This document shows positions 10,992 through 41,851 of a stretch of DNA of 64,000 bases, in pieces. Within the stretch, counting starts at the first letter, position 1. The number at the start of each line of letters is the position of its first letter. Both the position numbers and the translations under genes were made by a program. The DNA is taken from the sequence record NC_023693.1; one strand, given 5' to 3'. The stretch is from Escherichia phage phi92. The notes under the pieces were generated by a model that was not told where the DNA came from, made no database searches, and saw only the letters and a program-made list of their open reading frames with translations.

Positions 10992-11585
10992 TTAAATTTT
11001 AAATTCTTCATTGTTAAATGAATCCAGTGTACGTACTTCTGGTTCTTTGGGAATGAAAACGTCTTTTACAAAGCGGAACATAGGGAAACGTTCTGCCATT
11101 TTACGGACGTGTGCTTCTTTACCTGTGTATCGGTGATTAATAGTGCAAATATTAGTTTTCAATGCAAATTCAAAATCTGGATGATATACATAATTTTGAC
11201 CATCCCAGTAACACAAGCAAATAGCTACATCAAAGTTCCATACGATTTCACTGCGTACACCTTCTTCCATGATCATAAAGTTAAACTTAAGATCTTTATA
11301 GTATGCTTCAAATACCCATTTCAAATGTGGTAGTTCGGCATAAGTGTGTTCTGTTTGCTTAGTAAGTTGTTTAACATTACGTGCACCAACACCCAACATC
11401 AAAAATTTCTCTACTAATACGAGTGTATTGTGGTTAGGCATACGCAAGTAAATATCAATATCTTGCGCAGGTTTCTCTAATCGCCAATCACGTACAGCGC
11501 CGCCAGCTACAATTGCAAACGGATCTACCAGTTGGCACATACGTAATACTTCTAAAGCTCGTACTTTTTGATCTTCAATATTCAT
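10992..11585 (-). CDS. nucleotidyltransferase (Pol-beta superfamily, CCA-adding-enzyme-like head)
   Basis: Motif IVAGGAVRDWRL...DIDIY matches the GGxVRD...DxD nucleotidyltransferase signature; RBS aggag. Confidence 0.45.
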   Translation of the reverse strand: MNIEDQKVRALEVLRMCQLVDPFAIVAGGAVRDWRLEKPAQDIDIYLRMPNHNTLVLVEKFLMLGVGARNVKQLTKQTEHTYAELPHLKWVFEAYYKDLKFNFMIMEEGVRSEIVWNFDVAICLCYWDGQNYVYHPDFEFALKTNICTINHRYTGKEAHVRKMAERFPMFRFVKDVFIPKEPEVRTLDSFNNEEFKI

Positions 11586-11722
11586 ATTTTCTCCTATCTC
11601 TTATGGTCTTTGCGTTATTCTAGATGTTCAAACATCTAATTATGAAATGGTTTAAAAGTGCGGAACAACCTTGGCAATAACAGATTGTTCCACATAAAAA
11701 CTCCTTTAAAATCAAAGAGTTG

Positions 11723-14700
11723 TCAGTGACAAGTTGACCATGAACTACCAACATCGTAACCAGCAGTGAGAGGTACATTAAGATTGTAATACTCACCAGC
11801 TTTATTAACAGCGATAGATGCTAATTCTCCAGCACGACTGTAGGCTGTAAACCAACCACCTTTCGGAGATTCATGTACGTTAGCCCAAATCTTGCCAGTA
11901 CGTTTCTCTTCCTCTTCTTTCCAGGCATTAACTTTATCCAAACATTCTTTATCAATTTTCTTTTGTTCCTCTGGATCATCAACTTGAGTCCAACCTAAAG
12001 ATTCTTTAGAGAACCATTTAAAATGCACCAGATCACGAGTTACTTCAAGCTGTGCTTCATCGTGATATGCAATCATTTGTTGAACGAATGACTTATTTTT
12101 CCAGTCATCAACAAAAAAGTCAACAGCTAATCCTTCTTCTTCGATAAGATCGTCGTAGATAACCATTGCTCTTTTTGCACAAATAACACCACCACTCTGG
12201 AACAGAGAGTTAAGTATTGCGTGTGCAGATCGTGTAGGTACTTTCCTACCATCAATACCAAGAATGTATTTCTTACCTGTTTTAACCCAAAAATCATGCA
12301 GACGTTCTTTAAGAAGCGCAAGAGGTTTTGCAGCTTCCCAGAAAGCATCGTATACAAGCTGTCCTGTATACATATCACTACCTATAGTTTTTGCTACTTT
12401 TGCAGCTTGAGCACCATAAGTAATACCATACTTAACAGATTTAGCAGGGCTTCGTTCAAACTTACGACCAATAGTGTCAGAAATACGTCGAGCCATCATT
12501 GTATGAACATCATTAGGTTTTTCCAATAATAGAGCATTACAATATTCGTGTGGTTCCTGCTCGTACCGCCAACAATTCCCTGTAATCGTGATGCAGTCTT
12601 TCTGACGCATAACCCATGTACCGAGTTCTGTTTGTGGACACCAAACATCTTCTACACCCCATTCTTCAATAGTCAGACTTTGAACAGGGATGTGAGAGCG
12701 GTTAGCCAACGTTGCCACTTTTACTTTCTGGTCTTTCGTATTGAAGGCTACAGAAATATTACCCCCATGAACCAGGTATGAGGCAGTTAAGGCTGCTTCA
12801 AAAAGTTCTCCTGGGTTCTGCGCCCAGCGCCAAACAGGTTTTTGTTTATGTTTGTGCCAGTAACCATCCGCAATCAAAAAACCTTCCAAGAAAGCCACAC
12901 GCTCGGCATGAGACATATTAACTACACGTTCTACCCACGGAACATCCCATTTACCTTGTTGAACAGAAGTTAAACTATTTACTTGATCTTGTTCCATGTT
13001 AAATGGAGCATTACAAATAATGTTATCTCCTGTGCAAAGCTCGGCAGTTGTTCTGACTTTAGGCACATAAGTATTCCCTGTACTACGAGTATTAACATAC
13101 CAACGGTGATCTGCTGTTGCACGATAAGTATGGGATTTTCCTTTAATCTCAAACGTCTTACTATTTTTATAGAAGACCTTACCTTTTACTTTAGTCCATT
13201 CTTTAAGTCCTGTTTCTGGGTTATATCCTAAGATTTCATCCCCTTCTTGTAGATCGTGATAACCAACCCAACCTTTACGGGTTAGTGCTTGTGCATCCAT
13301 AGGTACACAGTAGTGTGATTCTATTTTTGCCTCAAGAGAATCAAAGTCATAACCAATTTGGAAGTATTTTGGAACTTCTACACCAAATAAGTTACGCATT
13401 TCATATCCGTACAGAGATGTTACACGTGGGATATTTGCTACTAACCTATGTTTCATACGAGACGTAGCTGCATCACACGTTGCAGCAGGAGTTGGTATAC
13501 GACCATCAGCCCTTACTGCTGCCAGATAACCTTTATCGTAATCCTCTTCATCTTCTTCCCAATCAGCACCACCTCCTAGAATAGAGTTCCTACGGTGTTT
13601 ATACGTAAGATACTGCACAATCTGCGTAGCATAAGGAAACTTTTCACCTAGTGCTTCCAAGTTAGGACAAATATCTTTCTCTTGCCCTTTTGTAAAGGAA
13701 GGGTTAGTAAGCACTTTAACACCACGACCTTTAGCTTTAGCAATACGATCTCTTAGTTTCCATTCCAAAGTTTCTGGTGTGCACTCCAGATGATCACATC
13801 TGTCCTGGCAGAAGTTAGATGCCAATGTTTGATCAACATAGTCACGAATAGCTTTCTCCATTTGTGCTTCATCTTTCTTAATCTTAGTGCCAGATTTAAG
13901 AGTGATATCTTTATCTTTATATTCAGATGGACTCCAACCTAAACCAACTAACCAGTTTTTAATATGTGTCGTGTCGTCTAAAGTAGCAGGTACTGTAGGA
14001 TCACAAATAGGTTCTTCTGCTGGAATAGGTAGTTTAAACTCTTTACCTAAAGCAAATAACCACCAACCATCTTCTTTTTGTACAAGTTCACCAGAATGTT
14101 TCTCTGCAAACTTTATCATGTTACTTGAAGGTTCACCATTCTTTTTAAACTGTAGTTTAGGTGGAATGAATGATTTCAAATAACCTTTAGTAGCAGGTTT
14201 AGGAGGTAGCACAGGTTCTGCCTCTAAACGACATGCTTCCATTCGAGCATCCAGATCACGAATATTATCTTCTGCTTGTTTCATATTGAAAGCAAAGCCA
14301 CGGTGCTCTTGACGTGTAATAATATCCGCTACACGTTGTTCTAAGTTAAATGGTTCAGACCACTTATTATAATCACCCCACTCTTCCATCAAATAACGGA
14401 ACACTGCGGTGTTAGCTTTGTTATCGTAAATACAGTAATACAGCATATCTGCTGCAAATGTTTTAAATCTTTCAGTTTCAGGGATATTTTTTCTAAAATC
14501 AATTTTAACATCCCCTCCAGCTTTCTTAGATAACTCTGCCAGACTATGACCACCGAAGCGATCAGGGTTTAGTGTCTTACTTAAGATCATAGTATCACAA
14601 ATTTCAATGTTACTATTACCCCAAGTATTGTACTTAATACTGTAGTTGAGTTTAAAAAATAATTTAATTGCCAGTAAGTCAAAGTTAATGATGTTATGTC

Positions 14701-15037
14701 CAACTACTTTGGTAATTTTATAGTTTGAATTACCTTTAAATTTACCTGTTCCATTTACAAAATCAGGAAAATCTTTAAGAGGGAAATGGGTATATTCTAA
14801 ATGCTCATATTCCTCCAGTCGGTATTCATACTTTCCGTCAGTCTCAACATACGGACGACCATCGAAAAGATATTTATCACCATCATGGAAAGCAATAATC
14901 TCTCCAGTATCATGACTTTCGCACACAATACAGTGCATTGCAAAACTATCTTTTAAACGATATGGACTTGCCAAGTAATCTACACTTTCGTCATTAAGCA
15001 AGTTGTTACTTTCAATGTCGAAAGTAAAAGCTCCCAT
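11723..15037 (-). CDS. family A DNA polymerase with 3'-5' exonuclease domain, interrupted by an intein
   Basis: Exo I FDIES; motif A DFDSLEAKI; motif B RSPAKSVKYGITYG; motif C YHDEAQLEV; in-frame insertion between motifs A and B. Confidence 0.8.
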   Translation of the reverse strand: MGAFTFDIESNNLLNDESVDYLASPYRLKDSFAMHCIVCESHDTGEIIAFHDGDKYLFDGRPYVETDGKYEYRLEEYEHLEYTHFPLKDFPDFVNGTGKFKGNSNYKITKVVGHNIINFDLLAIKLFFKLNYSIKYNTWGNSNIEICDTMILSKTLNPDRFGGHSLAELSKKAGGDVKIDFRKNIPETERFKTFAADMLYYCIYDNKANTAVFRYLMEEWGDYNKWSEPFNLEQRVADIITRQEHRGFAFNMKQAEDNIRDLDARMEACRLEAEPVLPPKPATKGYLKSFIPPKLQFKKNGEPSSNMIKFAEKHSGELVQKEDGWWLFALGKEFKLPIPAEEPICDPTVPATLDDTTHIKNWLVGLGWSPSEYKDKDITLKSGTKIKKDEAQMEKAIRDYVDQTLASNFCQDRCDHLECTPETLEWKLRDRIAKAKGRGVKVLTNPSFTKGQEKDICPNLEALGEKFPYATQIVQYLTYKHRRNSILGGGADWEEDEEDYDKGYLAAVRADGRIPTPAATCDAATSRMKHRLVANIPRVTSLYGYEMRNLFGVEVPKYFQIGYDFDSLEAKIESHYCVPMDAQALTRKGWVGYHDLQEGDEILGYNPETGLKEWTKVKGKVFYKNSKTFEIKGKSHTYRATADHRWYVNTRSTGNTYVPKVRTTAELCTGDNIICNAPFNMEQDQVNSLTSVQQGKWDVPWVERVVNMSHAERVAFLEGFLIADGYWHKHKQKPVWRWAQNPGELFEAALTASYLVHGGNISVAFNTKDQKVKVATLANRSHIPVQSLTIEEWGVEDVWCPQTELGTWVMRQKDCITITGNCWRYEQEPHEYCNALLLEKPNDVHTMMARRISDTIGRKFERSPAKSVKYGITYGAQAAKVAKTIGSDMYTGQLVYDAFWEAAKPLALLKERLHDFWVKTGKKYILGIDGRKVPTRSAHAILNSLFQSGGVICAKRAMVIYDDLIEEEGLAVDFFVDDWKNKSFVQQMIAYHDEAQLEVTRDLVHFKWFSKESLGWTQVDDPEEQKKIDKECLDKVNAWKEEEEKRTGKIWANVHESPKGGWFTAYSRAGELASIAVNKAGEYYNLNVPLTAGYDVGSSWSTCH
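12575..13309 (-). other. intein inside the DNA polymerase gene (boundaries approximate)
   Basis: Starts CVPMDAQALTRKGW after motif A, contains TADH block and LAGLIDADG-like FLEGFLIADGYW, ends ...ITITGN before CWRY; extein then resumes with NDVHT as in T7 polymerase GDIHT. Confidence 0.5.
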
Positions 15038-38598: not shown

Positions 38599-41373
38599 TT
38601 AGTTTACCAGTTTATTTATATCGGGTAAAAGATTTATTTCACCTAAAAAATCACCTTCACCTTCCTCTAACCAACTCTCATATGCTTGTGCATGATTATA
38701 GTTACCATCAAAAGAATCTGCAACAAATTTTTCTACAGTTTTTCGAGATGTGCCAGCGCCAAATACACCAAGTTTAATACCATTGATCGGTAAAGTGGTG
38801 CTTGTTGGTACTTTCTCTGTTGCAACACGGTTGATATCTATAATCTCCTGTACGGTTGTGTTCCATTGTAAGCATTTAACACAACGGGTATGCGCTACAT
38901 ACAGTAGGTTTCGCTCTGCCTCTTCCAGTCCTACCCATTCACCAGTCTTTTTATCATAGTTGGAAGGAAAATCATTAGCAACAATAACCTGATCCCACTC
39001 CAAACCTTTAGACTTGTGTGCTGTAGTCAGTGTGACTTTTGCTGTAGGAGAATTTCTATGCGTTCTAAGTGTATGTGCTATAGTGTTCGCCTTACCAGAA
39101 ACTACGATGTTTAACAAGCGTTTAGCATCTGGATCAGCCTCTGCACACTCAACAAATTCATTCCAATCTGCGTAAGGTAATACAGTTTCATGTTTTACTT
39201 TCTCAATATCTCCTCTCCGAAGAGCATTAACACTATCTACCATAGAGATAAAATCCCTGGTATCTACGTTAATAATAATTTCTTCCCCATTTGCAATACG
39301 ATCCATTGCCTCCATAAGCAAGGTTAAATTCTTGCGAAAGATGATAGTGTAAGGTTTTGTATAGTCTACAACATCTGATTTGTAGCTACCTACTACAGTA
39401 TCAAAGCCTTTACCAACCAAAGGATGACGCAAAGGTTCTTTATCGCTTAAAATCATATTGGCAATGTTTGCCACTTTGGGGCCAAAACGGAAGCAAGCAG
39501 TTAATGGAAGCTCTGCCCCATACTTAGCTGTTTCAATCATCATATTAGAGCTACCTCTAAATTGATAAATGCAGTTGTGGCTAAGAATTTCATTGCCAAA
39601 GAAGTTAGCAGTATCCTCTACTTCAATATCATAATAGATACCCTCACTATCTACAATGTCCACAATCTCTTCTGCCGTTACAGTATCACCATCTTTTACC
39701 AACACAGACATGCCTTTAAACAAACCCGCTGCCGGAATTAAGTTATATTTGGCAGTGTCTACAGAGGACATGCATTCTTTTAAAGATGCAAACGGAACTA
39801 TTTCAAGGATCTTTTGTGCAAAACTCAATGCTTCACGATAAGAATTGAAATACTTACGTACACGGTAACGACCTTCCAATTTAGCAACACTTACGCTTAC
39901 ACCTGCTTTAATGAGTGAAGCATAGATCGGCATTTCACTTTCTGTCCACTCAAAACTGACTTGTGTTCCTTTACAACCTTGTGCTCGCAAAGTCACTGTT
40001 AACATTTTTCTTTCATCTACTGCACAATTGATGCTGTGCCAATGTGGATAAGCAAAATGATAGTCTTTATCCTCTAAAAGTTTAAAACCATTCTGTCCGA
40101 ATTGTTCAAAGATGTTATTGATCCTTTCTTGATTAATGCCGCGTGAACTTGCTTCAAATACACAAGTAGGAATGCCATATTGTAAACTGTATGCCATTTC
40201 TTTTTCCATAGCAGCTTCGCGATTTTCAACAATGTCCAACACCCATAATTTCTGTGCTTTTTCAGAACGTGTACGTTGCCCCAGTTTAGAAAAACCTTCT
40301 TTATCATCGAATTTGTTAGTGATCCCTACTCGGAAACCTAAATCTTTCCTCCACATTAGGTATACCACCATCTGGTCATCTTTCAGAACATAGGATGAAG
40401 CCCAAATACGATGGTTATGTGTCATATCTAAAGTTTTACCTGTAGCAGTAATAATATTCCTACCTTTTGTACGTGTAGATAAAGTTTTATTTGTTACTTT
40501 TCTAAATGTAACTTTACCATTAGAATAAGACTCTACCTTATCACCGATTTGCAGGTCTTTCATTGTAACCTGACCATTCTCGGTGTTAAGTACCGTGTTT
40601 TCCGACACACATTGGAATTCATCGCCCACTACCACAATTTGTTTTGCAGATTTAGCATTTCGCAGAATAGACAAGAATGCAGGGTTAACATCCTGGAATT
40701 CATCACCAAAAATAATATCATAACCAAGATCAGCACCAGACAATTCAAACAATTTTACATAGGTGTCATGCGTCATCAAAGTATCTGTATTAGGATCAAT
40801 GCGCTCTCGCCACAATTGTTTTGCATACTTAACTACTTCTGTAATTAGTTTGTGTTCGTTAATACCTTTTCTTTTAATATCTGCAAGATGTACACTAGGA
40901 AAATGTTTACGGCTGATAAAAGGATCATCCGAAAATTCAAACTTACCTACGGTTTGCTTGATCATTAAACCGATCATAGCACGAGTTAAAAGTGTTTTCC
41001 CTCGTTTATCAATAAGATTATTAATCTTAAATTTCTTTGCTATCTCGCTACCTGTACCTGCAACGTTAACATACTGTCCTTCTGGTCGTGACAGTTTTGC
41101 ACGTAAACGATGATCCAGGAATTGATAGCAAATAGAATGCAATGTACGGCATTCTACATTTAGTGGCATCTTACGTCGTGCTTCTTCTGCCATGCTTTTA
41201 TTGAAAGCTAAGTAAAGAATGCGATCTTCTGTACTGTTAGCCAGCAAATAAAGTGTTGACGTTTTGCCTGATCCAGATTTAGCTTGGATAGTTAAAAAGC
41301 GATGGTCTGGAAAAGCCTCCTTAATAGCTGTTTGCTCTTCTGTTGGAGTGAAGCTCAAATCTTTCTTAGCCAT
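38599..41373 (-). CDS. UvrD/Rep-like SF1 DNA helicase interrupted by an intein
   Basis: Walker A AKSGSGKT, motif II GDEFQDVN, motif III split as VVGDEFQ / CIYQFRGSS; start set to ATG (MAKKDL) with RBS agagagg. Confidence 0.75.
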   Translation of the reverse strand: MAKKDLSFTPTEEQTAIKEAFPDHRFLTIQAKSGSGKTSTLYLLANSTEDRILYLAFNKSMAEEARRKMPLNVECRTLHSICYQFLDHRLRAKLSRPEGQYVNVAGTGSEIAKKFKINNLIDKRGKTLLTRAMIGLMIKQTVGKFEFSDDPFISRKHFPSVHLADIKRKGINEHKLITEVVKYAKQLWRERIDPNTDTLMTHDTYVKLFELSGADLGYDIIFGDEFQDVNPAFLSILRNAKSAKQIVVVGDEFQCVSENTVLNTENGQVTMKDLQIGDKVESYSNGKVTFRKVTNKTLSTRTKGRNIITATGKTLDMTHNHRIWASSYVLKDDQMVVYLMWRKDLGFRVGITNKFDDKEGFSKLGQRTRSEKAQKLWVLDIVENREAAMEKEMAYSLQYGIPTCVFEASSRGINQERINNIFEQFGQNGFKLLEDKDYHFAYPHWHSINCAVDERKMLTVTLRAQGCKGTQVSFEWTESEMPIYASLIKAGVSVSVAKLEGRYRVRKYFNSYREALSFAQKILEIVPFASLKECMSSVDTAKYNLIPAAGLFKGMSVLVKDGDTVTAEEIVDIVDSEGIYYDIEVEDTANFFGNEILSHNCIYQFRGSSNMMIETAKYGAELPLTACFRFGPKVANIANMILSDKEPLRHPLVGKGFDTVVGSYKSDVVDYTKPYTIIFRKNLTLLMEAMDRIANGEEIIINVDTRDFISMVDSVNALRRGDIEKVKHETVLPYADWNEFVECAEADPDAKRLLNIVVSGKANTIAHTLRTHRNSPTAKVTLTTAHKSKGLEWDQVIVANDFPSNYDKKTGEWVGLEEAERNLLYVAHTRCVKCLQWNTTVQEIIDINRVATEKVPTSTTLPINGIKLGVFGAGTSRKTVEKFVADSFDGNYNHAQAYESWLEEGEGDFLGEINLLPDINKLVN
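39574..40611 (-). other. intein (about 346 aa) inside helicase motif III
   Basis: Begins CVSENTVLNTENGQVT right after GDEFQ, ends ...NEILSHN directly before CIYQFRG. Confidence 0.6.
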
Positions 41374-41374
41374 T

Positions 41375-41851
41375 TCAACCTCTCTTAATTTGTTTAACAA
41401 GCATAGGAACAAAATCTCGTTTTAAAATTTGTTCAATAATATGATCAGGTAGCTGTTGGAAATTATAATTAAAAGCTACTGTCTCACCTTTAGGTGTTTC
41501 TACCCGCACATATAACATGTTACGAAGTTTATCCACTTGTGCTGTATATTCTAAACCATGTAATTGATGTATTGCAAACATCAAATCGTCAGTTTCAGTT
41601 TGGAATCTATCACTTCCTTGCATCAAGGACAAGGTAAAAGGTAGATTTTCCCTAAGAGCCACCTTCTTAGGCACTAGTGAAGGGAAATACTCCCCAATAA
41701 CTTCCTGTGTAAGCTGAATACACTCTTTTTCAAGCTGGTTTTGTTCCTTGAGTTCACAAACACTTTTTTGTAAAGTGTTAACCTCTTTTTGCAAAGCTGC
41801 TAGTTGAGCACTTAACTTTCTTTTTTGATTACGACCAAAACGTTTAGACAT
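41375..41851 (-). CDS. hypothetical protein
   Basis: 158 aa ORF, N-terminal coiled coil. Confidence 0.4.
   Translation of the reverse strand: MSKRFGRNQKRKLSAQLAALQKEVNTLQKSVCELKEQNQLEKECIQLTQEVIGEYFPSLVPKKVALRENLPFTLSLMQGSDRFQTETDDLMFAIHQLHGLEYTAQVDKLRNMLYVRVETPKGETVAFNYNFQQLPDHIIEQILKRDFVPMLVKQIKRG

What the first reader, a model, noticed from the sequence alone, without database searches (positions are those of the whole stretch)
12575..13309. Intein with LAGLIDADG-like motif between motifs A and B of the DNA polymerase
The polymerase ORF is continuous, but about 245 residues between DFDSLEAKIESHY and the T7-like NDVHT segment have intein features: N-terminal CVPMD, a TADH block, FLEGFLIADGYW, and a terminal Asn before Cys. 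The terminal GN instead of the usual HN is atypical and may mark a variant or degenerate intein.
Basis: partly seen in the sequence, partly recalled or inferred. Interest (0 to 1): 0.5.

Follow-up and report, generated by a model that had tools for sequence, protein, structure and literature searches.

The report
Mobile intein in phage DNA polymerase
The 245-residue stretch is a real, intact self-splicing intein inside the DNA polymerase of an E. coli phage; it is already annotated in public records of a sister phage, and its odd ending is normal for a large, little-described intein family rather than a sign of decay.

Summary
Window 13309..12575 (minus strand) encodes 245 residues, from Cys1 to Asn245, followed by Cys+1. 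They lie inside a continuous 1104-aa T7-like family A polymerase, 12 residues after the motif A aspartate.

The intein reading is supported:
- Sister phages that are 99.9% identical carry an exact 245-aa deletion reading ESHY|CWRY.
- An AlphaFold model matches only inteins and HINT domains.
- A family profile hits solved inteins at about 1e-5.
- Phage PaulScherrer, whose intein is 100% identical, is already annotated in GenBank as 'intein-containing DNA polymerase precursor'.

The Gly-Asn end is not degeneration. It is invariant in 155 of 157 related intein domains. These domains also carry Cys1 together with the class 3 'WCT' triplet (W70, C224, T243).

The central domain is a single LAGLIDADG-like core, half of a normal intein endonuclease. 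It has a conserved Asp-Gly and Gln and is under purifying selection as strong as the splicing domain (dN/dS about 0.03).

The intein is present or absent among near-identical phages. Its tree conflicts with the polymerase tree: 92-97% nucleotide identity across genera whose exteins are 73-79% identical. This points to repeated recent homing.

Verdict: already known as an intein. Its splicing mechanism and its half-size endonuclease are untested.

The parts
11723..15037 (-). Intein-containing DNA polymerase precursor ORF (1104 aa + stop); T7-like family A polymerase with N-terminal 3'-5' exonuclease
   Evidence: ORF; Pfam DNA_pol_A, 41.4 bits; T7 DNA polymerase E=1.4e-18; 99.8% identical to phage PD06 / PaulScherrer polymerase
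13310..15037 (-). N-extein, aa 1-576, ending ...DFDSLEAKIESHY
13331..13348 (-). Polymerase motif A core DFDSLE (aa 564-569; D564 corresponds to T7 D475)
   Evidence: alignment to T7 DNA polymerase; codons read
12575..13309 (-). Intein, 245 aa (precursor aa 577-821), Cys1 ... Gly244-Asn245
   Evidence: Exact deletion in VEcB, EmilieFrey, arall and phAPEC8 alleles; model pLDDT 84 with intein-only fold matches; family profile
13307..13309 (-). Cys1 codon (block A nucleophile); 157/157 in the family
13100..13117 (-). Block B: T65-A-D-H68-R-W70 (TxxH plus Trp at B:12)
   Evidence: T65 and H68 100%, W70 99% in 117 family members; H68/W70 align to H68/M70 of the solved class 3 AceL NrdHF intein
12695..13009 (-). 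Central inserted domain (intein aa 101-205): single LAGLIDADG-like alpha-beta-beta-alpha-beta-beta core
   Evidence: models; Foldseek top hits I-CeuI, PI-SceI endonuclease domain, I-DmoI, I-OnuI, WhiA; dN/dS 0.026-0.040
12857..12895 (-). LAGLIDADG-like motif AFLEGFLIADGYW (aa 139-151); putative catalytic D148-G149
   Evidence: Pfam LAGLIDADG_3 E=0.027-0.084, below cut-off; D148 89% (+9% Glu), G149 98%, G143 always Gly/Ser/Ala, Q164 99%
12575..12649 (-). Blocks F and G: DVWC224PQTELGTWVMRQKDCITIT243-G244-N245
   Evidence: C224 100%, T243 100%, G244 99%, N245 100%. C224 lies 21 residues before Asn, as in the Mle DnaB (C124/N145) and Msm DnaB-1 (C118/N139) class 3 inteins (PMC5222942)
12638..12640 (-). 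Cys224 codon (block F position 4, the class 3 branch-point position)
   Evidence: position definitions in PMC5222942
12572..12574 (-). Cys+1 codon, first C-extein residue and ligation nucleophile
   Evidence: Cys is also present in intein-free alleles of both genera
11726..12574 (-). C-extein, aa 822-1104, beginning CWRYEQEPHEY... and containing motifs B and C
12413..12445 (-). Polymerase motif B AKSVKYGITYG (aa 865-875). In relatives this is the insertion site of a related 324-aa intein (KYG|C)
   Evidence: T7 AKTFIYGFLYG; nieznany allele

Best explanation
Window 13309..12575 (minus strand) is an intact, mobile intein translated in frame within the phage's essential T7-like DNA polymerase. 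After translation the 245-residue HINT domain removes itself and joins ...IESHY to CWRYEQ..., restoring the palm/fingers region between motifs A and B (inferred from sequence, fold and population data; not assayed). It belongs to a large phage and metagenome intein clade. That clade has a fixed signature: Cys1, block B TxxH-x-Trp, Cys at block F position 4, Thr-Gly-Asn at the C-terminus, and Ser/Thr/Cys at +1. Cys1 is invariant in all 157 sampled relatives, so I take the most likely chemistry to be class 1-type initiation at Cys1 (an N-S acyl shift). Cys224 would then act either as the F:4 catalytic partner or as a thioester relay to Cys+1, and Asn245 cyclisation would proceed without a penultimate His. 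A true class 3 route, in which Cys224 attacks first, is not excluded. The central 105 residues form one LAGLIDADG core. I infer that two intein molecules dimerise through this helix, as in I-CreI and I-CeuI, to form a homing endonuclease. This enzyme would cut intein-less polymerase alleles during mixed infection, and repair from the intein-bearing genome would copy the intein in. That would explain its patchy, tree-incongruent distribution.
For: Insertion/deletion: VEcB polymerase (859 aa) equals the window protein minus exactly aa 577-821 and reads ESHY|CWRY. By record count, 39 Justusliebigvirus-type records are intein-free and 10 are intein-plus; about 32 Phapecoctavirus records are free and 24 are plus. 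Identity as an intein: the model has pLDDT 84 and pTM 0.83. The 50 best-listed Foldseek PDB hits (41 with E<=0.001) are all inteins or HINT domains: PI-SceI 4e-8, TliVMA 1.3e-7, AceL NrdHF TM 0.78. The family profile hits the NrdJ-1, AceL NrdHF and Spl DnaX inteins at 1.3e-5 to 2.7e-5. GenBank MZ501100 annotates the identical sequence as an intein. Functional constraint: C1, T65, H68, C224, T243 and N245 are 100% conserved, W70 and G244 99%. dN/dS is 0.013 in the HINT part and 0.026 in the insert for window versus UAB_1 (35 synonymous, 3 non-synonymous changes). Endonuclease domain: an alpha-beta-beta-alpha-beta-beta core whose best fold hits are LAGLIDADG proteins. D148 is D/E in 98%, G149 98%, Q164 99%, and the helix-packing position G143 is always Gly/Ser/Ala. 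Single-motif LAGLIDADG enzymes work as homodimers (PMC2655683). Mobility: intein nucleotide identity is 91.5-96.9% between genera whose exteins are 73-79% identical. Two intein alleles 5% apart sit in polymerases about 1% apart (intein dS 0.27 versus extein dS 0.05 and 0.01), and allele B is closer to the Phapecoctavirus intein than to allele A. An 11-SNP synonymous haplotype at +8..+74 nt travels with the intein in 3 of 4 Phapecoctavirus intein-plus alleles. Penultimate Gly is compatible with splicing in phage inteins (PMC5050341).
Against: No splicing or cleavage assay exists for this intein, and none could be run here. Curated models do not see it: no Pfam Intein_splicing or Hint hit, no NCBIfam hit, no PHROG hit. 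LAGLIDADG assignment is sub-threshold by sequence (LAGLIDADG_3 13.6-15.2 bits against a cut-off of 22.5; I-DmoI E about 0.1). The sub-domain fold hits have E of only about 1e-2. The empty site shows no significant palindromic symmetry (best 6/11 matching pairs, reached by about 5% of positions in the gene), which does not favour a homodimeric enzyme. Within Justusliebigvirus no flanking SNP separates intein-plus from intein-free alleles, so precise loss cannot be told apart from gain. A dimer could not be modelled. Which cysteine initiates splicing is undetermined.
Confidence: 0.85

Rival explanations
1. A splicing-competent intein whose central domain is no longer, or never was, a nuclease. 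The single LAGLIDADG-like core would be kept for folding, for regulating splicing, or for DNA binding. The patchy distribution would then come from ordinary phage recombination and precise deletions, not self-driven homing.
For: There is only one LAGLIDADG motif, whereas the characterised intein endonucleases that came up as structural matches (PI-SceI, PI-PfuI) are monomeric (PI-SceI is called monomeric in PMC2655683; the two-motif architecture is from my own knowledge). Sequence and fold matches to LAGLIDADG enzymes are weak. The target site is not detectably palindromic. Intein-plus and intein-free Justusliebigvirus alleles have indistinguishable flanks. LAGLIDADG folds have been recruited for non-nuclease roles (WhiA and the bI3 maturase appear among the fold hits).
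Against: The acidic-Gly pair (98% D/E, 98% G) and the Gln that aligns with the Gln of the 'vvitQK' segment of I-DmoI (the active-site Q42, from my own knowledge) are almost invariant across relatives that are only about 30% identical. The same about-245-aa architecture is kept in over 100 family representatives at many insertion sites. Intein alleles are exchanged across genera whose flanks are 21-27% divergent, which homologous recombination alone would rarely achieve at exactly one codon boundary. A co-conversion-like tract is present in Phapecoctavirus.
Confidence: 0.3
2. The intein splices by the class 3 pathway. Cys224 (block F:4) attacks the N-terminal junction to form a block F branched thioester, the N-extein is then passed to Cys+1, and Cys1 is dispensable for chemistry.
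For: The complete WCT triplet is present with canonical spacing (W70 two residues after H68; C224 21 residues before Asn; T243 at G:5) and is 99-100% conserved in the family. Ser or Thr is at +1 in 76% of the family, as in class 3 (PMC5222942). The His residues at F:13 and G:6 are missing, as in the solved class 3 AceL NrdHF intein (PMC7891396). Class 3 mini-inteins are among the best structural matches (TM 0.73-0.78). A few WCT inteins that start with Ser1 or Cys1 were already noted in 2009 (PMC2807308).
Against: Cys1 is invariant in 157/157 domains, which implies it is needed; class 3 inteins as defined lack it (PMC3196547; PMC7891396). The family profile shows no special sequence affinity for the DnaB-type class 3 inteins, which do not appear among profile hits at E<=1. 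Class 1 inteins with Cys at F:4 are known and polyphyletic (PMC3196547). Grafting WCT onto a class 1 intein did not create class 3 chemistry (PMC7664689).
Confidence: 0.3
3. A degenerate, non-splicing intein remnant tolerated inside the polymerase, or inactivating it.
For: The atypical Gly-Asn end; no hit to curated intein models; a half-size endonuclease domain.
Against: All catalytic positions are intact and invariant. dN/dS is about 0.02 over 35 synonymous changes. The host phages are viable lytic isolates with a single family A polymerase gene. The insert sits 12 residues from the catalytic Asp, between motifs A and B, where an unspliced 245-aa domain would be expected to disrupt the active site (inference). 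GN is the family norm, and a penultimate Gly splices in another phage intein (PMC5050341).
Confidence: 0.03
4. A native polymerase sub-domain (an accessory insertion like the thioredoxin-binding loop of T7 polymerase), not an intein.
For: The ORF is continuous, and family A phage polymerases do carry lineage-specific insertions.
Against: Polymerases 99.5-100% identical lack exactly these 245 residues. T7 polymerase aligns straight across the junction. The same domain family is found in unrelated host proteins and at other polymerase sites. The fold is HINT.
Confidence: 0.01

Closest known systems
Intein of Escherichia phage PaulScherrer (Bas60) DNA polymerase, GenBank MZ501100, bas60_0044, annotated 'intein-containing DNA polymerase precursor' (also phage SD2, PQ821640)
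   Same: 100% identical in amino acids and in nucleotides (735/735), at the same site in a polymerase 99.6% identical. This is the same element.
   Different: The GenBank mat_peptide is offset by one codon (VPMD...GNC instead of CVPMD...GN). A Cys flanks both ends, so comparison alone cannot place the boundary. The record gives no class, endonuclease type or activity. Among the other listed records with this insert, only SD2 names the intein; the rest label the gene as a polymerase or hypothetical protein.
324-aa intein in motif B of Phapecoctavirus nieznany/ukendt polymerases (also phiWec187 and four records labelled 'Campylobacter phage')
   Same: Same intein family (32% identity; shared CVPxD, TxDHxW, DVxC, ITxTGN|C), same host gene, and Cys+1.
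   Different: It is inserted 50 residues downstream (KSVKYG|C-TYGAQ). It carries two LAGLIDADG motifs (GRFLGWLLSDGYY and AFLEAFWMADGH), so it looks like a conventional monomeric endonuclease. The window intein aligns only to its second core and lacks about 80 residues.
Class 3 inteins (mycobacteriophage Bethlehem DnaB, M. smegmatis / M. chimaera DnaB-1, AceL NrdHF)
   Same: Trp B:12, Cys F:4 and Thr G:5 with identical spacing. Of phage origin. Mostly Ser/Thr at +1 in the wider family. Lacks the F:13 and G:6 histidines, like AceL NrdHF. Good structural superposition.
   Different: It begins with an invariant Cys1, which class 3 inteins lack by definition. The window copy has Cys+1. There is no demonstrated sequence clustering with the DnaB-type class 3 clade. 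The mechanism is untested.
PI-SceI / TliVMA / PI-PfuI: LAGLIDADG endonuclease-containing class 1 inteins
   Same: A HINT splicing domain interrupted at the same loop by a LAGLIDADG-fold domain. These are the best whole-model fold matches (E 4e-8 to 1e-7). The same selfish-element logic applies.
   Different: Those inteins are 360-540 aa with two-motif endonuclease domains, end in His-Asn and (from my own knowledge) have Asp at F:4. This one is 245 aa with one core, ends in Gly-Asn and has Cys at F:4.
I-CreI / I-CeuI / I-MsoI homodimeric single-motif LAGLIDADG homing endonucleases
   Same: One LAGLIDADG helix per chain followed by beta-beta-alpha-beta-beta. I-CeuI is the top fold match for the isolated domain. 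There is a conserved acidic residue plus Gly at the end of the helix and a conserved Gln after the second strand.
   Different: Those enzymes are free-standing and intron-encoded, with fuller cores (the I-CeuI chain matched here is 207 aa; I-CreI is about 160 aa from my own knowledge). Here the core is about 105 aa and embedded in an intein. Dimerisation and cleavage are unproven, and no palindromic target is evident.
Mycobacteriophage Bethlehem gp51 (RDF) intein
   Same: A phage intein with Cys1 and a penultimate Gly that splices efficiently; changing the Gly to His causes precursor accumulation (PMC5050341).
   Different: A different host protein and family. It is described as class 1 with an endonuclease domain; no WCT triplet is reported for it.

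Membership tests
Intein (HINT protein-splicing element) | In-frame insertion in a conserved host protein, absent from close homologues | tested here: met
   Exact 245-aa (735-nt) presence/absence in polymerases 99.5-100% identical
Intein (HINT protein-splicing element) | N-terminal Cys/Ser/Thr (block A) and block B TxxH | tested here: met
   C1, T65 and H68 are present and 100% conserved in 117-157 relatives
Intein (HINT protein-splicing element) | C-terminal Asn followed by Cys/Ser/Thr | tested here: met
   N245|C+1; family N 100%; +1 is S 74, T 46, C 37
Intein (HINT protein-splicing element) | Penultimate His (block G:6) | tested here: not met
   Gly244; Gly in 155/157 relatives. This feature is common but not obligatory: phage inteins with Gly, Lys or Ser here splice (PMC5050341)
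Intein (HINT protein-splicing element) | HINT fold | tested here: met
   AlphaFold model pLDDT 84; the 50 best-listed Foldseek PDB matches (41 with E<=0.001) are all inteins, BIL or Hedgehog HINT domains. This is a predicted structure, not a solved one
Intein (HINT protein-splicing element) | Match to curated intein models (Pfam Intein_splicing/Hint, NCBIfam intein N/C-terminal models) | tested here: not met
   No hit at E<=1. A profile built from 8 family members does hit solved inteins at 1.3e-5 to 2.7e-5
Intein (HINT protein-splicing element) | Protein splicing demonstrated | not testable with these tools
   Needs expression with a western blot or mass spectrometry. Indirect support: viable phages, dN/dS about 0.02
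Class 3 inteins | WCT triplet: Trp B:12, Cys F:4, Thr G:5 | tested here: met
   W70 (H68+2), C224 (21 residues before N245) and T243; 99-100% conserved. Definitions in PMC5222942
Class 3 inteins | No Cys/Ser/Thr nucleophile at intein position 1 | tested here: not met
   Cys1, invariant in 157/157. Definitions in PMC3196547 and PMC7891396
Class 3 inteins | Ser or Thr at +1 | tested here: not met
   Cys+1 in the window; 76% of the wider family have Ser or Thr. Bvi IcmO is a known class 3 exception with Cys+1
Class 3 inteins | Block F branched intermediate; Cys F:4 essential and position 1 dispensable | not testable with these tools
   Needs C1A, C224A and N245A mutants in a splicing reporter
Class 3 inteins | Membership of the monophyletic class 3 clade | tested here: inconclusive
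   The family profile hits AceL NrdHF (class 3) and NrdJ-1 / Spl DnaX (from my knowledge, conventional class 1 inteins) equally, and not the DnaB-type class 3 inteins at E<=1. No phylogeny was built
Class 1 (canonical) inteins | Cys/Ser/Thr at position 1 forming the linear (thio)ester | tested here: met
   Cys1 is present and invariant. The chemistry itself is not testable here
Class 1 (canonical) inteins | Asp at block F:4 and His at F:13 and G:6 as assisting residues | tested here: not met
   F:4 is Cys224. There is no His in DVWCPQTELGTWVMRQ or at G:6. Class 1 inteins with Cys at F:4 are reported to exist (PMC3196547)
LAGLIDADG homing endonucleases | LAGLIDADG helix ending in an acidic residue plus Gly | tested here: met
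   L141-E-G-F-L-I-A-D148-G149. Across the family, D/E 98%, G 98%, and position 3 always Gly/Ser/Ala
LAGLIDADG homing endonucleases | Significant match to curated LAGLIDADG models | tested here: not met
   LAGLIDADG_3 at 13.6-15.2 bits against a cut-off of 22.5; 11 of 36 relatives hit, best E 5.4e-4
LAGLIDADG homing endonucleases | Alpha-beta-beta-alpha-beta-beta(-alpha) core fold | tested here: inconclusive
   The predicted topology fits (pLDDT 87.7). The top fold hits are LAGLIDADG proteins at probability up to 1.0, but with E of only 1.5e-2 to 0.3
LAGLIDADG homing endonucleases | Two cores per active enzyme (two motifs in one chain, or a homodimer) and a pseudo-palindromic target if homodimeric | tested here: inconclusive
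   One motif per chain. A dimer could not be modelled. The symmetry scan of the empty site was not above background
LAGLIDADG homing endonucleases | Site-specific DNA cleavage of the intein-less allele | not testable with these tools
   Needs purified protein and an empty-site substrate.

The most novel reading that the evidence does not exclude
This coliphage intein may be a tractable representative of a large, essentially uncharacterised phage intein clade (at least 636 50%-identity clusters at E<=1e-30). The clade combines an invariant Cys1 with the complete class 3 WCT triplet and a Gly-Asn terminus, and carries a single-core LAGLIDADG endonuclease that would have to work as an intein homodimer. 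If so, it could be (a) a living example of the two-nucleophile state from which class 3 inteins were proposed to arise in phages, or a hybrid Cys1 -> Cys F:4 -> +1 thioester relay; and (b) possibly the first homodimeric LAGLIDADG homing endonuclease found embedded in an intein. My searches of the held paper library found no description of one, which does not show that none exists.
Probability: 0.25. Interest if true: 0.6.

Novelty: already known. Interest (0 to 1): 0.3.

Why it matters
As an intein call it adds little, because the identical element is already annotated in GenBank for phage PaulScherrer. Three points go beyond that.

1. The family is invisible to Pfam, NCBIfam and PHROGs. Most of the listed public phage records with this insert label the gene as a plain polymerase or hypothetical protein, and the true size of the mature enzyme (859 aa) is missed.

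2. The intein carries both a class 1 feature (Cys1) and the class 3 signature (WCT), fixed across hundreds of relatives. Simple C1A and C224A mutants would show whether the class 3 triplet can operate alongside an N-terminal nucleophile. That bears on how class 3 splicing evolved.

3. Intein-plus and intein-free phages of the same species are both in culture on E. coli K-12 (for example PaulScherrer and EmilieFrey in the BASEL collection). This offers an unusually easy system to measure intein homing, co-conversion and the activity of a half-size LAGLIDADG domain in mixed infections.

Tried and rejected
1. Single-sequence searches of the intein gave only sub-threshold or non-significant hits: Pfam, PDB sequences, NCBIfam and PHROGs. 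Evidence had to come from a family profile and predicted structure.

2. The word-indexed homologue search returned only 9 proteins and missed the identical phage polymerases. The exhaustive profile search was needed to see the family.

3. A palindromic-symmetry scan of the empty homing site, to test the homodimer idea, gave a best of 6/11, not above the gene-wide background. This is inconclusive.

4. I first read the divergent C-extein flank of nieznany (TWRYDNPDHAY versus CWRYEPEPHEY) as co-conversion with the window-type intein in ESCO5. Intein-free Phapecoctavirus alleles turned out to match ESCO5 at 99.9%. The divergent tract therefore belongs to nieznany and travels with its motif B intein, and I dropped that reading.

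5. I looked for a free-standing endonuclease that might mobilise the intein in trans. The small gene upstream of the polymerase is annotated 'endonuclease' in some records, but it has no Pfam hit, is present in intein-free phages, and is replaced by a methyltransferase in Phapecoctavirus. It is not associated with the intein.

6. Literature searches for this intein, for coliphage polymerase inteins and for single-motif LAGLIDADG inteins found nothing specific. Tori & Perler 2011 (PMC3133030), which tested WCT inteins that begin with Cys/Ser, is not held.

7. Active-site geometry (Cys1-Cys224 distance) could not be measured, because model coordinates are not exposed to the scripting tool (listing).


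Full report
**What is in the sequence**

The finding lies on the minus strand inside one uninterrupted ORF, 15037..11723, of 1104 aa. Pfam sees a family A polymerase only in the C-terminal part (DNA_pol_A, residues 839-1002, 41.4 bits).

Reading the codons directly and by script gives these positions:
- CVPMD starts at aa 577 (codon 13309..13307).
- ITITGN ends at aa 821 (codon 12577..12575).
- The next residue is Cys (12574..12572).

**Where the window comes from**

tblastn against phage genomes places the window in the Justusliebigvirus group (phi92-like E. coli myophages, Stephanstirmvirinae). The polymerase is 99.5-99.8% identical to phages PD06, PD114, PaulScherrer, UAB_1 and others.

**Is it an insertion?**

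Yes, and precisely so. The polymerase of phage VEcB (859 aa) is 99.9% identical to the window protein over 78% of its length, in two pieces. In the alignment it lacks exactly residues 577-821 and reads ...DFDSLEAKIESHY|CWRYEQEPHEY.... At DNA level the window matches VEcB up to 13307 and again from 12574.

A phmmer alignment of the spliced sequence to T7 DNA polymerase (E=1.4e-18) runs straight across the junction:
- DFDSLE aligns with T7 motif A (D475).
- The insertion point corresponds to T7 F487|M488.
- AKSVKYGITYG aligns with T7 motif B.

It is not a native sub-domain.

**Is it an intein?**

Single-sequence searches are nearly blind to it:
- Pfam gives only LAGLIDADG_3 at E=0.084.
- PDB sequences give intein hits at E 0.3-0.7.
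- NCBIfam and PHROGs give nothing.

Relatives fixed this. A word-indexed search gave 9 proteins. Eight intein domains aligned with invariant C1, T65, H68, W70, C224, T243, G244 and N245.

The profile of that alignment hits the solved NrdJ-1, AceL NrdHF and Spl DnaX inteins at 1.3e-5 to 2.7e-5. In an exhaustive search of 1.84 billion representative proteins it finds 636 proteins at E<=1e-30 and 3567 at E<=1e-10.

An AlphaFold model built on the alignment has pLDDT 84 and pTM 0.83. The 50 best-listed Foldseek matches in the PDB (41 of them with E<=0.001) are all inteins or HINT domains. PI-SceI scores 4e-8 and TliVMA 1.3e-7. Class 3 mini-inteins reach target TM-scores of 0.73-0.78.

The identical protein sequence in phage PaulScherrer (GenBank MZ501100) is already annotated 'intein-containing DNA polymerase precursor' with an intein mat_peptide. 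Phage SD2 carries the same label. The PaulScherrer authors state that they identified inteins by comparative genomics (PMC8594841). Their boundary is shifted by one codon (VPMD...GNC), because a Cys flanks both ends and comparison alone cannot place it. The chemically meaningful boundary is Cys1...Asn245.

**The Gly-Asn end is the family norm, not decay**

In 157 full-length family domains from the best 150 representative proteins:
- Position 1 is Cys in 157.
- The last two residues are GN in 155.
- The residue before them is Thr in 156.
- The +1 residue is Ser in 74, Thr in 46 and Cys in 37.

In 117 members of window-like length, T65, H68, C224, T243 and N245 are 100% conserved, and W70 and G244 are 99%. 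Phage inteins with a penultimate Gly are known to splice, and one splices worse when the Gly is changed to His (PMC5050341).

**An unnoticed feature: the class 3 triplet together with Cys1**

Class 3 inteins are recognised by Trp at block B:12, Cys at F:4 and Thr at G:5. They initiate splicing with the F:4 cysteine (PMC5222942; PMC2807308). Here:
- W70 is two residues after the block B His. The profile alignment to the solved class 3 AceL NrdHF intein pairs H68 with its His and W70 with its M70.
- C224 is 21 residues before the terminal Asn. This is the spacing of C124/N145 in Mle DnaB and of C118/N139 in Msm DnaB-1.
- T243 is at G:5.

Class 3 inteins are nevertheless defined as lacking an N-terminal nucleophile (PMC3196547; PMC7891396), and this family never lacks Cys1. 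It therefore fails class 3 membership on a defining feature while also departing from class 1 norms (no Asp at F:4, no His at G:6).

Exceptions of this kind were noted before. Three WCT inteins beginning with Ser1 or Cys1 were mentioned in 2009. Class 1 inteins with Cys at F:4 are called polyphyletic. The paper that tested them (Tori & Perler 2011) is not held. From memory, not verified here, it reported that at least one such intein uses the class 3 route.

Because Cys1 is invariant, I favour initiation at Cys1, but I cannot decide this computationally.

**The central domain**

Relative to the 324-aa relative in phage nieznany, which has two LAGLIDADG motifs, the window intein lacks about 80 residues including the first motif. 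It aligns only to the second core.

This is not a recent truncation. About two thirds of the family (104 of 157 domains) are 240-260 aa long, at many different insertion sites and at about 30% identity to the window.

Both the whole-intein model and a separate model of residues 99-213 (pLDDT 87.7) show helix, LAGLIDADG helix, two strands, helix, two strands.

The isolated domain's best fold matches are:
- I-CeuI, a homodimeric LAGLIDADG enzyme.
- The PI-SceI endonuclease domain (rmsd 3.1 Å over 76 columns).
- I-HjeMI, I-OnuI, the bI3 maturase, WhiA and I-DmoI.

Probabilities reach 1.0, but E-values are only 1.5e-2 to 0.3. Sequence evidence is sub-threshold: LAGLIDADG_3 in 11 of 36 members with best E 5.4e-4, and I-DmoI at E about 0.1.

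Conservation supports function:
- D148 is Asp or Glu in 98%, and G149 is Gly in 98%.
- Q164, which aligns with the Gln of the 'vvitQK' segment of I-DmoI (from my own knowledge this is the active-site Q42), is conserved in 99%.
- The helix-packing position G143 is always Gly, Ser or Ala.
- A basic residue follows the fourth strand in 81%.

Single-motif LAGLIDADG enzymes act as homodimers on pseudo-palindromic sites (PMC2655683). My working inference is an intein homodimer. A symmetry scan of the empty site was not above background, so this step remains an inference.

**Selection and mobility**

I compared eleven intein-bearing polymerase genes.

Within Justusliebigvirus the exteins are 98-99.6% identical, yet there are two intein alleles:
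- Allele A: window, PaulScherrer and PD114, 100% identical to each other.
- Allele B: UAB_1, cardinal and ESCO32.

A and B are only 95% identical. Allele B is closer (96.2-96.9%) to the Phapecoctavirus intein than to allele A, although the exteins of the two genera are only 73-79% identical. For window versus UAB_1 the synonymous divergence is 0.27 in the intein against 0.05 and 0.01 in the exteins. The intein tree is thus incongruent with the host gene, and the site has been invaded more than once.

Nearly all differences are synonymous. dN/dS is 0.020 overall, 0.013 in the HINT part and 0.026 in the central domain for window versus UAB_1, and 0.022 for window versus ESCO5. The central domain is as constrained as the splicing domain.

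Presence/absence is common in both genera, counting records with duplicates included:
- Justusliebigvirus-type: 10 intein-plus and 39 intein-free records, with 5 more carrying the motif B intein instead.
- Phapecoctavirus: about 24 intein-plus and 32 intein-free records. Intein-free alleles such as phAPEC8 are 99.9% identical to the spliced ESCO5 protein, so Cys+1 is native.

In Phapecoctavirus, three of four intein-plus alleles share an 11-SNP synonymous haplotype at +8 to +74 nt from the junction. It is absent from intein-free alleles, as a co-conversion tract would be. In Justusliebigvirus no flank SNP tracks the intein. Window and PaulScherrer are SNP-free from 153 nt upstream to 281 nt downstream of the intein, while differing at about 1% elsewhere in the gene.

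Together this is the expected footprint of an element that homes, or did so very recently. Precise loss cannot be separated from gain with these data.

**Comparison with what is known, and novelty**

As an entity this intein is already in public annotation, so the finding itself is 'already known'. I found no paper describing it. [quoted passage not shown]

No paper in the held library describes an intein with a single LAGLIDADG core. The family escapes the curated domain libraries, which explains why most of the listed records with this insert call the gene a plain polymerase or a hypothetical protein.

The family is concentrated in phage-type family A polymerases. Of the 157 domains:
- 53 sit in motif B at two positions.
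- 3 sit at the window's own site, with Thr+1 (for example GRVQGHY|...|TWRYDNG).
- 40 sit in an unidentified protein (VYP|SAYANGW).

The most novel reading that the evidence leaves open has two parts. [quoted passage not shown] Its endonuclease may also be a homodimer formed by two inteins. Both can be tested directly, because intein-plus and intein-free phages grow on E. coli K-12.

**Verdict**

- 'Degenerate' is rejected in favour of 'family-typical variant'.
- Interest is modest (0.3), because the element is already annotated and behaves like an ordinary selfish intein.
- There is a moderate upside if the mechanistic oddities prove real.

Noticed in passing
window 39574-40611 (minus strand), inside ORF 38599-41412: A second, unrelated intein of 346 aa lies in a UvrD/Rep-like helicase: GDEFQ|CVSENTV...NEILSHN|CIYQFRGS. 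It has a canonical Cys1 ... His-Asn / Cys+1. Pfam Intein_splicing gives E=9.3e-8 (32.5 bits, just under the 35.8 cut-off) and Hint gives 2e-6. It is annotated as an intein in the PaulScherrer and ZYD records. I could see no LAGLIDADG motif in its central domain, which I did not identify.
   Followed up: partly
window 11670-11692, between the polymerase stop (11723) and ORF 10992-11585: The window lacks about 520 bp that VEcB (L002 5611-6129) and PaulScherrer (L001 6348-6857) carry immediately downstream of the polymerase. That stretch encodes most of a roughly 198-aa hypothetical protein (vecB_155 / bas60_0043) with no Pfam hit. Phage 'cardinal' seems to share the short form.
   Followed up: partly
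L003 3001-3972 (phage nieznany); also phiWec187 and records MG065639/45/56/89: A related 324-aa intein with two LAGLIDADG motifs occupies polymerase motif B (KSVKYG|C-TYGAQ) in other members of the subfamily. It comes with a divergent extein tract of about 480 nt (for example TWRYDNPDHAY instead of CWRYEPEPHEY), which looks like co-conversion. The same polymerase gene therefore hosts two related inteins at sites 50 codons apart, never both in the records seen.
   Followed up: partly
Records MG065639, MG065645, MG065656, MG065689, MG065650: Five records labelled 'Campylobacter phage' (host Campylobacter jejuni) encode polymerases 97.9-99.9% identical to E. coli Justusliebigvirus or Phapecoctavirus polymerases. 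They also share the helicase intein at 97% nucleotide identity. They look like coliphages under a wrong label or host.
   Followed up: no
L001 4732-5466 (PaulScherrer mat_peptide 'intein'): The GenBank intein feature is offset by one codon from the chemical boundaries: it starts at Val2 and ends at Cys+1. A Cys flanks both junctions, so comparison with empty alleles cannot place the boundary.
   Followed up: yes
Records PP919962 (Klebsiella phage KP2025) and PP895363 (FKP3): In KP2025 the homologous polymerase match spans 402 nt more than the intein-free length and is annotated as two 'DNA polymerase' CDSs. In FKP3 an 'HNH endonuclease' is annotated under or next to the polymerase match. These may be further mobile insertions in the same gene.
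   Followed up: no
OZ035773.1 versus MT932211.1: A record named 'Justusliebigvirus VEcB' (OZ035773, 148,885 bp) carries the polymerase intein, whereas 'Escherichia phage VEcB' (MT932211, 147,702 bp) does not. Either the species name is applied to a different isolate, or the intein is polymorphic within this species.
   Followed up: no
window 12575-13309 and the wider family: Pfam Intein_splicing/Hint, NCBIfam and PHROGs all fail to detect this intein, although its family has at least 636 representative clusters at E<=1e-30. Automated annotation will systematically miss these inteins.
   Followed up: yes
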